17,650 bases of DNA from a virus (lineage: Duplodnaviria > Heunggongvirae > Uroviricota > Caudoviricetes). The position numbers were made by a program. Numbering within the stretch: position 1 is the stretch's first letter; each line of letters starts with the position of its first letter. The stretch lies in IMG/VR virus record IMGVR_UViG_2540341031_000012, one strand, 5' to 3'. This document shows positions 6,001 through 9,000 of the stretch, piece after piece.

Positions 6001-9000
6001 ACGTAGCCCTGATGCCCGGTGGTGTTGGCGAGCGGATTTTCCTGTACCAGAATGCTCAGATGCATTGCCCGGACAAGCGCCTCACAGGTTTCATTCAGGG
6101 CGTGTTCCAGCTCATGCTCTGCATACAGACTCAGAAGGTGATGATGTGCCTTCCGGTAGGCGGTGGCCGTGCTGTCACACGCCCCTTTCAGGCGTTCACG
6201 TTCGAAATTCAGCACCACGGCCAGATTGTCATATTCCTGTACCAGCTCCCGGCGTGCCACGCGCTCAATGTGGCGCTGTTTCAGCTCGTCGCTCAGGACA
6301 CCACCGGCTGCACGAAAGGCCGTGCGCCAGTCGTCAGCGTCGTTTCCGTCGGCCTGCGTCAGCGCATTTTTTTCCTGCTTTGCCCGTTCAATGGCCGTGA
6401 CGGTCTCATCCATCAGGCGGGCGTTCTCAAGGTGGGCGGCTCTGGCCTTTTCCAGTTGTGCCAGTGCGGGTTGCAGATATTCAGGGATGGTGTTGTCAGA
6501 CATTTTCCGGCTCCTCGTCACTTCAGGTTGAGAAAATTGTGACGTACACCGGACAACAACACGACGCATTGCAGATGTGCCAGCCCTGACACAGGAGACT
6601 CATCCTCAGACCGGCAAGCCAGGAAAAGGTCGCAGGAAAAACCGGCTTACTGTTTGTTTTTTTATATTTTACTGTTCACCTCTGTTCACCTTAAGAAAAA
6701 AGATAAGTAATACAGTAAGTTAAAGGGTGAACAATCGCAGTAATGACTGTTCACCGTCTGTTCACCACTGTTCACCCGCTCATGGACTTTTTGTGCTGTT
6801 TACTACTGTTTATTTTTATTAATTCACTGAAATAAATAAGAAAAAACAATTTGTATTTCACTATAAAAAATTCCAAGTCCTTCAGAACCCTTTGAGACCC
6901 TTCCAGTCCGGATGAATAAAAAATATACAGTCATTGTAAGGCAGCCTGAACAAATCCCCCCTGTTGCGTCTGCCAAAAATATTCACAAAATAAAGCGCTA
7001 CCCGAAGCCGGACGGACTTATCCGGTGCTGTATGGACATTAACGAGGTAGCCCGATGCAAGCTGTTTTTTCTTCCCCGTCTCCTGCCCCTGTGACGCCAC
7101 TGATGCCGCTGCCGGACATCACGCAGGAGCGTTTTTTACGTCTGCCGGAAGTGATGCACCTGTGCGGCCTGTCACGCTCGACCATCTATGAACTCATCCG
7201 TAAGGGGGAATTTCCGCCGCAGGTGAGCCTTGGCGGTAAAAATGTGGCCTGGCTGCACTCTGAAGTCACTGCATGGATGGCCGGGCGCATTGCCGGACGC
7301 AAACGGGGGTACGACGCATGATGATGCCCGCTCTGCAAAAAGTCCCTTTTTCTGGCTTGCCTTTTTCCGGCATTTGCGGATATAGTTTTTCCGCTGCCGC
7401 AAAATCGGCAGCCGGGCGTGAGAACCCGAGCAATCTAACGGCGACATATGACGCGCCATGCGTCTTTTTTTGTGTCGCAATCAACGCCACAGAGCGCCAG
7501 ATTATGGTGTGGTGTGTGGTCAGTCGTGCAGATGGCACTCCGTGCATCCTGCCCGCGTCCGCTCATTATGCCGCAGAGTCAATGGTAGCTCAGGCGGGGC
7601 AGCCTCCGGGCTGGCCGGTATCCGTTAGAGCCGGTATTCTCACCCCCGTCTGGGCTATCGCCATCGAGCGTGAGAACTCCGGCGATAGCGTAACCTGCTA
7701 TCTAACGGAGGCTGCCATCATGGCTACAACCCTTACCCCCTCATACCCTGAATTTGTCTTTGTGTTTGCCGCTGTCCGTCGCGCAGACCGCCATCCCCGT
7801 ATCTGTATGCTTCGCACCGTCGCCGGTGATGAACGCAGCGCCCGCCGTTCCCTTGTCCGTGACTATGTGCTCTCCCTTGCTGCCCGTCTGCCGGTTGTGG
7901 AGGTGTCCCGTGCGTAATAAAAAAGCCCCTCAGACCGTCTCAGCGCGTCATGACGCCCGTGAACACCTCAGCATTGAGGCTTACCATAAGCTCAACCGCG
8001 CCAGCGCCGTATCCCAGTTTGTTGGGGGTGATTTGATTCACCGTGAACTCTCCGGCCTGCATCAGCTCTACATTCCGCATATTTTCAGTTACCTGAATGA
8101 AGATATTGATTTTGTGCTGAATGAACTGAAAGCCAAAGGCCTGTGCCGCGATTTTCTCGCCCAGCAGAAAGACCGGGGAGACAGGACGCATGTTTGATTT
8201 TCCCCAGCCCGGTGAGATTTACCGTTCTGCCGGTTTTCCCGATGTGGCCGTGGTCGGCATTCTGGAAGACGGTATTCCGTGGGAAATGCCGTACCGCTGC
8301 CCGGAAATTGTCTGGAACCCGTACCGCCGTAAATTCAGTATCCTTGTGCGTATCCTCGCCGACGGGCGCACCACAGACATCCCGCTGGGGCGTTTTCTGC
8401 GGGAATTTACCTGTGACCGTCCTGACCTGTTTAAACGCAGCCCCGTAAACCGGCATGCGGTACTGAAAGAAATGGCCGGAGACCCGGAATTACAGAAATG
8501 GCGGGAGAAATATCTGGATATTTACCCGCAGGACACTGTTCCGGCCAGCCGGGCGGCACCGGTGGCGCGGGAATGGCGGGAAATTCCCCGCACGGAGCCT
8601 GACCCGGAAATCACCCCGGATAACAGTTACCGCAATTATCTGTAATTAAAAAACGACACCCGAAAAATTAAATGTGCGTATTCGCGCAGGGATACGCACG
8701 TCTTCAGGAGACGCAGATATGCCTTATCAGTTAATGCAACCGGCACGGAATGCAGTCATCTGTCACAGGGAGGAAAGCAAATGAAAACACCCTTACCGCC
8801 CGTCTTACGCGCTGCCCTTTACCGTCGCGCTGTCGCCTGTGCCTGGCTGACCGTGTGCGAACGTCAGCACCGCTACCCGCATCTCACCCTTGAATCACTG
8901 GAGGCGGCCATCGCCGCTGAGCTGGAAGGCTTTTATCTGCGCCAGCACGGTGAGGAAAAAGGGCGTCAGATAGCCTGTGCCCTGCTGGAAGATTTAATGG

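What the first reader, a model, noticed from the sequence alone, without database searches (positions are those of the whole stretch)
6673..6776. ori-like cluster of six TGTTCACC iterons between sid and the regulator gene
Five direct copies and one inverted copy of the octamer bound by P4 alpha lie within about 100 bp, in an AT-rich, hairpin-poor intergenic region. Together with crr about 4.8 kb away, this reproduces the P4 two-site replication origin architecture.
Basis: partly seen in the sequence, partly recalled or inferred. Interest (0 to 1): 0.35.

Follow-up and report, generated by a model that had tools for sequence, protein, structure and literature searches.

The report
Replication origin of a P4-like satellite
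The six TGTTCACC repeats are the well-known replication origin of a phage-P4-type satellite prophage sitting in an E. coli chromosome, almost base-for-base identical to P4's, so the finding is correct but ordinary.

Summary
TGTTCACC occurs at 6673, 6683, 6726(-), 6748, 6759 and 6769; the window holds 13 copies against 0.64 expected.

The window 4435-11795 is one colinear 7.3-kb block, 97.75% identical to phage P4 from cos to crr. The six octamers coincide with the six features GenBank annotates in P4 as "ori type 1 repeat" inside "origin of DNA replication". Spacing is identical (10/43/22/11/10), and so is the distance to crr (4725 bp).

The initiator alpha is 99% identical to P4 alpha. Its origin-binding winged helix is 100% identical to PDB 1KA8. 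Cnr is 106/106 identical, and crr keeps its two 120-bp repeats.

Across 53 distinct origins from other Enterobacterales, octamer columns are 90% conserved (spacers 69%, flanks 53%) and the TTCAC core is essentially invariant. Octamer variants co-vary between ori and crr.

Verdict: this is the orthologue of P4 ori, already known.

One side observation may be new. The adjacent "type 2" 3x10-bp repeat (6880-6909) is the most diverged patch of the element. It is a positionally conserved but sequence-variable array across satellites, and in P4 it matches the helper P2 Cox-box consensus.

The parts
6673..6776 (+). Iteron cluster of the origin (P4 'ori type 1 repeats'). Six TGTTCACC octamers at 6673, 6683, 6726 (inverted), 6748, 6759 and 6769.
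   Evidence: Exact matches: 13 in the window against 0.64 expected. The positions coincide with the six annotated 'ori type 1 repeat' features of P4 X51522, with the same spacing of 10/43/22/11/10. Octamer columns are 0.90 conserved in 53 distinct origins from other species, against 0.69 for spacers and 0.53 for flanks. The TTCAC core is essentially invariant (0.98-1.00).
6691..6725 (.). AT-rich spacer between octamers 2 and 3. It contains a block at about 6697-6722 (AAAAAGATAAGTAATACAGTAAGTTAAAG) that is as conserved as the octamers. Its role is unknown; it may be an unwinding or start site, or a host-factor site.
   Evidence: Per-column conservation is mostly 0.9 or higher across 53 distinct origins. 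GC is 0.31 for 6650-6749. No function was tested.
6777..6879 (.). Most AT-rich stretch of the intergenic region (GC 0.25-0.33). It lies inside the segment P4's record annotates as rep_origin, and its sequence is poorly conserved.
   Evidence: Composition profile. Conservation is 0.0-0.7. The P4 rep_origin feature 9086-9809 spans it.
6880..6909 (-). Three tandem 10-bp units (CTTCAGAACC CTTTGAGACC CTTCCAGTCC), corresponding to P4's 'ori type 2 repeats'. In P4 these match the P2 Cox-box consensus on the reverse strand. Here they are a different allele. This is probably the helper-sensing site upstream of the late promoter P_LL, not part of the alpha-binding origin proper.
   Evidence: P4 annotation. 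Alignment. Least conserved patch of the 7.3-kb block. Cox-box consensus and the P2 Cox site upstream of P4 P_LL (PMC3936717). A period-10 triplet is present at this position in most satellites, with varying units. The units are decoupled from Vis.
6935..6952 (+). TGT-N12-ACA dyad upstream of vis. This is the motif type of Ogr/Delta-activated late promoters, so it is a presumed P_LL activator site.
   Evidence: Pattern match, conserved in P4. That the dyad is the Delta/Ogr site is background knowledge, not tested here.
6538..6593 (-). Two TGT-N12-ACA dyads (6538-6555 and 6576-6593) upstream of sid. These are presumed P_sid activator sites. Together with the P_LL dyad they bracket the origin between divergent late promoters.
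   Evidence: Pattern matches. The region is 100% identical to P4. No sigma-70-type promoter lies in 6450-7100, which is consistent with activator-dependent promoters.
9116..11458 (+). alpha, the initiator. It has a zinc-ribbon/Toprim primase, a D5-type SF3 helicase, and a C-terminal winged-helix origin-binding domain (residues 671-770, nt 11126-11425).
   Evidence: Pfam domains. It is 769/776 identical to P4 alpha. Residues 671-770 are 100% identical to PDB 1KA8.
8781..9101 (+). cnr (ORF106, DUF5375), the copy-number regulator that acts on alpha in P4.
   Evidence: 106/106 identical to P4 ORF106. Pfam DUF5375. The role of Cnr is background knowledge.
11496..11796 (+). crr, the second cis site. 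It consists of two 121-nt direct repeats (11496-11616 and 11676-11796). It holds 5 exact TGTTCACC, 9 copies within one mismatch, and 12 NNTTCACN words in the 420 bp after the alpha stop.
   Evidence: Direct-repeat family D1, spacing 180. About 99% identical to the annotated P4 crr, which has two 'crr 120bp direct repeat' features. Octamer counts.
7380..7665 (+). P4 immunity RNAs: the C4-family antisense RNA (7578-7665) and its targets (a1b1 at 7380-7432, isrK at 7393-7470). In the prophage these keep alpha untranscribed, and so keep the origin silent.
   Evidence: Rfam hits above the gathering threshold. The immunity mechanism is background knowledge.
4435..11795 (.). The P4-colinear backbone that the origin belongs to: cos, psu, delta, sid, ori, vis, immunity region, epsilon, orf151, cnr, alpha, crr.
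   Evidence: A single blastn alignment of 7335 bp at 97.75% identity to P4, plus the 27-bp cos end. Gene identities are 94/95 to 106/106.

Best explanation
The cluster is the origin of replication (ori) of a P4-like satellite prophage integrated at ssrA in E. coli.

Shown here:
- It is the positional and sequence orthologue of phage P4 ori.
- The element also carries the second cis site, crr, 4.7 kb away.
- The element encodes an alpha protein whose origin-binding domain is identical to P4's.

Inferred from the established P4 literature, not tested here:
- After derepression, when helper infection or loss of RNA immunity allows transcription through to alpha, alpha's C-terminal winged helix binds the TGTTCACC octamers at both ori and crr.
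- Alpha bridges the two sites, opens the adjacent AT-rich DNA, and acts as its own helicase and primase. The host polymerase then starts bidirectional theta replication.
- Cnr restrains alpha to set copy number.
- In the integrated, immune state the origin is silent.
For: - Identity to P4. The region 6500-7100 is 92.9% identical to P4 under the features 'origin of DNA replication' and six 'ori type 1 repeat'. There is one mismatch in 219 bp around the octamers. Spacing and the ori-crr distance are identical.
- Not chance. The window has 13 octamers against 0.64 expected.
- Cognate parts are present and intact. Alpha is 99% identical to P4 alpha, with its winged helix 100% identical to PDB 1KA8. 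Cnr is 106/106 identical. crr has both 120-bp repeats. The full backbone is 97.75% identical with no disrupted gene.
- Purifying selection on the octamers. In 53 distinct origins from other genera, octamer columns are 0.90 conserved against 0.69 for spacers (Mann-Whitney p = 1e-5) and 0.53 for flanks. The TTCAC core is essentially invariant. A cluster of 5-7 words is found 1.6-2.6 kb upstream of alpha in nearly all loci, and a second cluster starts about 45 bp after its stop codon.
- One reader for both sites. The octamer variant at ori tracks the variant at crr (rho = 0.77 for T at position 8, and 0.64 for C at position 2, over 36 loci). Three iteron classes coincide with three classes of alpha winged-helix sequence.
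- Literature. [quoted passage not shown] Ziegelin 1993 is cited for origin recognition.
Against: Nothing in the sequence contradicts it. The limits are as follows.
- The classic papers that show alpha binding, ori-crr looping and the start site could not be read in the held library. Those mechanistic steps rest on background knowledge plus the GenBank annotation.
- The ori/crr/alpha co-variation is confounded by shared ancestry.
- Alpha's last few residues differ from P4 (PATTCPT against PTTA). They lie outside the crystallised domain.
- The loci compared were selected by similarity, which inflates absolute conservation but not the octamer-versus-spacer contrast.
Confidence: 0.95

Rival explanations
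1. The sequence is a true P4-type origin but is dead. The element would be a cryptic, decaying prophage (like CP4-57 at the same ssrA site in K-12), and the origin would never fire.
For: The element is chromosomal, like all 1211 copies found in E. coli genomes. It sits at the CP4-57 site next to ypjA. Alpha's extreme C-terminus differs from P4.
Against: All essential P4 genes are full-length and 97-100% identical to P4, and cos, ori and crr are intact. There are no frameshifts or insertions in the 7.3-kb block. The immunity RNA system is intact. The octamers show no decay, with six of six exact.
Confidence: 0.07
2. The octamers are primarily operator sites for a transcription factor that controls the divergent late promoters P_sid and P_LL, rather than initiator-binding iterons.
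For: The cluster lies between the two TGT-N12-ACA promoter dyads. Regulators such as Vis/AlpA are encoded next door.
Against: The same octamer recurs in a second cluster downstream of alpha. That cluster has no downstream gene within the element. The octamer also co-varies with alpha's DNA-binding domain. P4's record annotates the repeats as origin repeats. Alpha binding could still affect promoter activity as a secondary effect, and that is not excluded.
Confidence: 0.03
3. The repeats are a chance or low-complexity repetition with no function.
For: None beyond the AT-rich context.
Against: None of 200 shuffles reach the observed count. Position, orientation and spacing are conserved across many genera.
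Confidence: 0

Closest known systems
Phage P4 ori (ori type 1 repeats) together with crr, GenBank X51522 / NC_001609
   Same: - The octamer, copy number, orientation pattern, spacing, flanking genes and distance to crr are all the same.
- Alpha's origin-binding domain and Cnr are both 100% identical.
- The backbone is 97.75% identical overall.
   Different: - There is one base change in a spacer.
- The neighbouring type 2 repeat patch is a different allele.
- The element uses another integrase and sits at ssrA, not at P4's attachment site.
- It carries two unknown cargo genes where P4 has gop, beta and cII.
Origins of other P4-like satellites of Enterobacterales (family surveyed in PMC8628076)
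   Same: They share the two-site architecture: 5-7 NNTTCACN words 1.6-2.6 kb upstream of alpha and more words just downstream. The 43/21-22/11/10 spacing is conserved.
   Different: Many relatives use variant words (TGTTCACT, or YCTTCACC in Pantoea-type elements), paired with different alpha winged-helix sequences. The window belongs to the canonical TGTTCACC class.
Iteron-type plasmid and satellite origins in general (for example R6K, P1 and pSC101 plasmids; SaPI/PICI islands, whose Rep-helicase binds repeated origin sites)
   Same: They use multiple short direct repeats bound by an element-encoded initiator next to AT-rich DNA. Copy number is controlled through the initiator. This resemblance is from background knowledge.
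   Different: - Here the initiator is a single primase-helicase-winged-helix polypeptide, not a Rep/pi-type protein.
- A distant second site, crr, is required in cis.
- Membership of these other families was not tested and is not claimed.
Archaeal plasmid pRN1 ORF904 system
   Same: It has the same functional organisation of primase, SF3 helicase and winged helix in one replication protein (PMC2777425).
   Different: It has a different primase fold (prim/pol), a different origin, and no octamer or crr system.

Membership tests
P4-type bipartite origin (ori + crr) | Six type 1 octamers TGTTCACC, five direct and one inverted, with spacing 10/43/22/11/10 | tested here: met
   positions, orientation and spacing are identical to the annotated P4 features.
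P4-type bipartite origin (ori + crr) | Location in the spacer between sid and ORF88/vis, that is, between P_sid and P_LL | tested here: met
P4-type bipartite origin (ori + crr) | A second cis site, crr, directly downstream of alpha. It has two 120-bp direct repeats separated by about 60 bp, each carrying type 1 octamers in both orientations. | tested here: met
   the repeats are 11496-11616 and 11676-11796, start-to-start spacing is 180, and the region is about 99% identical to P4 crr. Searches give the octamer counts.
P4-type bipartite origin (ori + crr) | A cognate initiator alpha with primase, SF3 helicase and a C-terminal winged-helix origin-binding domain | tested here: met
   alpha is 99% identical to P4 alpha, and residues 671-770 are identical to PDB 1KA8.
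P4-type bipartite origin (ori + crr) | The Cnr (ORF106) regulator encoded just upstream of alpha | tested here: met
   106/106 identical; DUF5375.
P4-type bipartite origin (ori + crr) | Alpha binds the octamers specifically at both sites | not testable with these tools
   Only indirect support is available: the binding domain and the sites are identical to P4, and ori, crr and alpha co-vary.
P4-type bipartite origin (ori + crr) | Replication initiates here and requires crr in cis | not testable with these tools
   This needs a replication assay. The P4 record annotates the homologous segment as rep_origin, and crr as 'cis required region for replication'.
P4-like satellite (as defined in PMC8628076) | Co-localised integrase, psu, delta, sid, alpA/vis, epsilon and alpha, in P4 order | tested here: met
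   all seven are present and in P4 order. The integrase is of a different type, next to ssrA.
P2 Cox-box array (for the adjacent type 2 repeats only) | Boxes matching TTAAA(G/C)NC(A/C), spaced 10-11 bp apart, upstream of P_LL | tested here: not met
   The spacing and position requirements are met. The sequence requirement is not: the window boxes TGGAAGGGT, TCAAAGGGT and CTGAAGGAC match only 4-5 of the 8 specified positions, whereas P4's TTAAAGTCA, TTAAAGCCA and TTAAAGCAA match. With the window-type matrix P2 gives no signal. The patch may work like a Cox site for a different helper protein.

The most novel reading that the evidence does not exclude
The origin itself holds no novelty. The most novel reading left open concerns the 3x10-bp array beside it (6880-6909).

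Across P4-like satellites, this array may be an exchangeable helper-recognition cassette. Its unit sequence would be matched to the Cox/Apl-type protein of a particular P2-family helper. On this reading the allele decides which helper phages can wake the satellite and thereby fire this origin.

The window's allele (CTGGAAGGGT-like boxes) would respond to a W-phi-type Cox rather than to P2 Cox.
Probability: 0.35. Interest if true: 0.55.

Novelty: already known. Interest (0 to 1): 0.1.

Why it matters
The finding as given adds nothing new to biology. P4 ori, crr and alpha have been characterised since the 1980s-90s, and this copy is nearly identical to them. The same region occurs in 1005 of 5426 complete E. 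coli genomes.

Its practical value is for annotation. RefSeq leaves the sid-vis spacer unannotated, so the origin and crr of thousands of P4-like prophages go unmarked.

The comparative data give a cleaner family-wide definition of the site: a TTCAC core, variable positions 2 and 8, and a fixed 43/22/11/10 layout. They also suggest three alpha/iteron specificity classes, which bears on whether co-resident satellites can cross-replicate.

The side observation on the variable helper-sensing repeat could explain satellite-helper specificity, if it is confirmed.

Tried and rejected
- Primary papers. The papers on alpha binding and ori (PubMed 8253092, 10438819, 7635818; PMC413647) are not held. 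Three searches failed on a too-short term. Searches gave only passing mentions of crr. Mechanistic steps are therefore marked as background knowledge.
- Vis as reader of the type 2 repeats: rejected. Vis is 87/88 identical between the window and P4 although the repeats differ. In addition, 29 pairs of elements with Vis at least 93% identical carry unrelated units.
- The window patch as a P2 Cox-box array: rejected on sequence.
- Scan of viral contigs with AAGGGT-N4-AAGGGT-N4-AAGG. It was not analysed further.
- Single-box PWM scan at a high threshold. It had no power, because even the P4-to-P2 positive control failed. A phased 4-box score replaced it, and that score passed the control.
- Ungapped sliding of the 30-mers. 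P4 against P2 scored 22/30 in the switch region. There were hints for the Pantoea TAGTACT-type units against phage P88 (20-22/30 in its switch region). These were not pursued.
- att core. No long direct repeat was found. Only a 23-nt near-repeat lies close to both ends.
- Cargo genes. There were no Pfam or PADLOC hits.
- RNA or ORF explanations for the cluster: excluded.
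Full report
**1. The observation**

TGTTCACC occurs exactly at 6673, 6683, 6748, 6759 and 6769 on the + strand and at 6726 on the - strand. The whole window has 13 copies where dinucleotide-preserving shuffles give 0.64 +/- 0.74, and none of 200 shuffles reach 13. Five further exact copies lie at 11501-11763.

- The region is AT-rich, with GC 0.25-0.42 against about 0.58 in the neighbouring genes.
- It folds no better than shuffled sequence (z = -0.10).
- It contains no ORF of 50 aa or more and no Rfam family.
- It lies between sid (5769-6503, -) and the AlpA-family regulator vis (7055-7321, +).

**2. What it is**

A blastn of 6500-7100 against 50,697 phage records hits only phage P4. The match covers 100% of the query at 92.9% identity and falls on the features 'origin of DNA replication', six 'ori type 1 repeat' and three 'ori type 2 repeat'.
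- In the pairwise alignment, the 219 bp around the octamers differ from P4 at one spacer base.
- The six octamers have the same order, orientation and start-to-start spacing (10/43/22/11/10) as the annotated P4 repeats.
- The window 4435-11795 is a single 7335-bp alignment to P4 at 97.75% identity. It runs from the cos end through psu, delta, sid, ori, vis, the immunity region, epsilon, orf151, cnr and alpha to the end of crr.
- crr is about 99% identical to P4's. It keeps its two 121-nt direct repeats, 180 bp apart start to start, as annotated in P4.
- The distance from the last ori octamer to the first crr octamer is 4725 bp in both genomes.

**3. The protein side**

- Alpha (9116-11458) has zinc-ribbon, Toprim, D5_N and D5-helicase domains.
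- It is 769/776 identical to P4 alpha.
- Its residues 671-770 are identical at all 100 positions to PDB 1KA8, the crystallised P4 origin-binding domain. [quoted passage not shown]
- Cnr is 106/106 identical, epsilon 94/95, orf151 148/151, delta 162/166, psu 187/190, Sid 241/244 and Vis 87/88.
- The C4-type immunity RNA and its targets are present.

So every known cis and trans component of P4 replication and its control is intact.

**4. Context**

The element sits between ssrA (tmRNA, 698-1060) and ypjA. This is the chromosomal site that CP4-57 occupies in K-12.
- In place of P4's int and gop-beta-cII it has a different integrase (1245-2465) and two hypothetical cargo genes (2553-4092, -), which have no Pfam or PADLOC hit.
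- The ori region is found in 1005 of 5426 complete E. coli genomes, always on the chromosome.
- The genome with a 100% identical ori carries it at tRNA-Sec with another integrase, so the replication core is shared among elements that differ in integration module. This agrees with the census of P4-like satellites (PMC8628076).

**5. Independent evolutionary evidence**

I fetched 76 alpha-encoding loci from species-representative genomes, with alpha identity of 63-99%.
- Nearly all loci with enough flank have a cluster of 5-7 NNTTCACN words within 116 bp, located 1.6-2.6 kb upstream of alpha. More words start about 45 bp after its stop codon.
- In an alignment of 53 distinct ori segments plus the window, octamer columns are 0.90 conserved, against 0.69 for spacers inside the cluster (Mann-Whitney p = 1.3e-5) and 0.53 for flanks.
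- The TTCAC core is essentially invariant (0.98-1.00) at all six positions. Variation is concentrated at octamer positions 2 and 8.
- The variant used at ori tracks the variant used at crr: Spearman 0.77 for T at position 8 and 0.64 for C at position 2, over 36 loci.
- Three iteron classes (TGTTCACC, TGTTCACT, YCTTCACC) coincide with three sequence classes of alpha's winged helix.

This is what one protein reading both sites predicts. The signal is confounded by shared ancestry, and I treat it as supportive only.

**6. Mechanism**

Shown here: the site, the second site and the initiator are those of P4.

Inferred from the established P4 literature (Ziegelin et al. 1993, cited; Yeo et al. 2002, cited; neither could be read):
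- Alpha binds the type 1 octamers at ori and crr through its C-terminal domain and bridges the two sites.
- Alpha supplies helicase and primase activity for bidirectional theta replication by the host polymerase.
- Cnr limits copy number.
- In the prophage the immunity RNA prevents alpha expression, so the origin fires only after derepression.

**7. Rivals**

- A dead origin in a cryptic prophage cannot be excluded without an experiment. Nothing in the 7.3-kb block is disrupted.
- A purely transcriptional role for the octamers is unlikely. The same word forms a second cluster downstream of alpha, away from any promoter, and it co-varies with alpha's DNA-binding domain.
- Chance is excluded.

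**8. Comparison and novelty**

This is the orthologue of P4 ori. All sequence-testable defining features of the P4 ori/crr system are met. Binding and initiation are not testable here. Novelty: already known. Interest is low.

**9. Side trail: the 'type 2 repeats' (6880-6909)**

This 30-bp triplet and its surroundings (6800-6950) are the least conserved patch of the whole P4-colinear block, at 68-86% identity against 97.75% overall.

*In P4 the units match the P2 Cox box.* On the reverse strand P4's units read TTAAAGTCA, TTAAAGCCA and TTAAAGCAA. These match the P2 Cox-box consensus TTAAA(G/C)NC(A/C). P2 Cox binds upstream of P4 P_LL, with boxes 10-11 bp apart, to derepress the P4 prophage (PMC3936717; the P2 record note).

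*The window's units are a different allele.* They read CTGGAAGGGT, CTCAAAGGGT and TCTGAAGGAC, and match only 4-5 of the 8 specified Cox-box positions.

*The array is a family feature with variable units.* In 51 distinct satellites, a 3x10-bp tandem repeat lies about 80-120 bp past the last octamer.
- The mean score is 20.2/30 against 13.0 +/- 1.8 for shuffles.
- 21 of 51 score at least 22, against 0.1% of shuffles.
- Only period 10 gives a signal.
- The unit differs among elements: TTTGCCA, AATGGCCAAT, CAGGGATTG, TGCGAGGATG, TAGTACTATT and others.

A reader encoded outside the satellite fits better.
- Cox/Apl-type proteins bind direct repeats one helical turn apart, and Apl needs three adjacent operators (PMC7498355).
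- W-phi Cox neither binds P2 Cox boxes nor activates P4 (PMC5009727).

*Test against helper genomes.* I used a phased 4-box matrix score.
- With the P4-type matrix, the best array in the P2 locus falls at the known Cox site in the Pe-Pc switch (16.6; 5 of 200 shuffles reach it). This is the positive control.
- With the window-type matrix, the best array among nine helper loci is in the att region of W-phi: CTATAAGGGA CTGGAAGGGC TACAAAGTTC (15.0; 11 of 200 shuffles).
- W-phi's switch region carries CCTAGAAAGGACAGG / CCTAGAAGGGACTGG, 20 bp apart.

This is suggestive, but it is not significant after nine tests.

*Prevalence.* Both alleles are common in E. coli. The window-type patch is in 206 genomes and the P4-type in 439.

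*Prior description.* I found no description of this variation in the searchable library, and the census paper never mentions Cox. This is absence of evidence only.

**10. Verdict**

The feature is already known and ordinary. The neighbouring variable repeat is the only lead worth a follow-up.

Noticed in passing
window 6880-6909 (context 6800-6950); loci L007-L078; L200 25943-25985; L201 589-630 and 2091-2125: The 'ori type 2' 3x10-bp repeat is the most diverged patch of the P4-colinear block.
- Across satellites it is a period-10 triplet that is conserved in position but variable in sequence.
- It is decoupled from the satellite's own Vis.
- In P4 it equals P2 Cox boxes.
- The window's allele resembles W-phi-type repeats. 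The window-type patch is in 206 E. coli genomes and the P4-type in 439.
- It may be a helper-specific wake-up site.
   Followed up: partly
loci L007-L078 (ori 1.6-2.6 kb upstream of alpha; crr within 420 bp after alpha): There are three iteron classes: TGTTCACC, TGTTCACT and YCTTCACC. Each is used at both ori and crr of the same element, and each is paired with a distinct alpha winged-helix sequence class. This hints at replication-specificity or incompatibility groups among P4-like satellites. Phylogeny confounds the signal.
   Followed up: partly
window 6697-6722: The spacer block AAAAAGATAAGTAATACAGTAAGTTAAAG, between octamers 2 and 3, is as conserved across genera as the octamers themselves (about 0.9 or higher). 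Nothing is annotated there. It could be an unwinding or start site, or a host-factor site.
   Followed up: no
window 2553-4092 (-): Two cargo genes (72 aa and 435 aa) lie between the integrase and cos, where P4 carries gop, beta and cII. They have no Pfam and no PADLOC match, and RefSeq calls both hypothetical. In strain 602354 the same slot holds an AAA family ATPase.
   Followed up: partly
window 698-2465 and 11796-12100; L003: The same P4 replication and hijacking core is found with different integrases at different sites: ssrA here, tRNA-Sec in strain 602354, and P4's own site. A 23-nt near-repeat (ATTGGTATACG.TTAGGTATACG) lies near both ends of the element, at 1172-1194 and 11858-11880. 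It may be an integrase arm-type site.
   Followed up: no
window 12464-17650: The flanking autotransporter gene ypjA is a single 4581-nt CDS in strain Br_178_kylling. Here its longest ORF is 1009 aa (12464-15493), and the window is about 1.3 kb shorter. This suggests an internal deletion or disruption. The next gene (DUF5507) is a pseudogene in the comparison strain.
   Followed up: no
loci L004, L005, L006, L035, L069, L076: Contigs encoding alpha at 81-99% identity to this E. coli element appear in genome bins labelled Ferruginibacter, Clostridiales, Ruminococcus, Dysgonomonas and Vagococcus. This is most likely contamination of those bins or assemblies by Enterobacterales DNA.
   Followed up: no
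window 7380-7665: The P4 RNA-immunity system is intact: the C4-family antisense RNA at 7578-7665, its a1b1 targets at 7380-7432, and an isrK match at 7393-7470.
   Followed up: no
L207 (phage P88) C-cox spacer, about 1520-1570, against L046, L057, L065 and L068: The TAGTACTATT-type repeat arrays of Pantoea satellites gave their best ungapped matches (20-22 of 30) inside the C-cox switch region of phage P88. This is a second possible helper-satellite box match.
   Followed up: no
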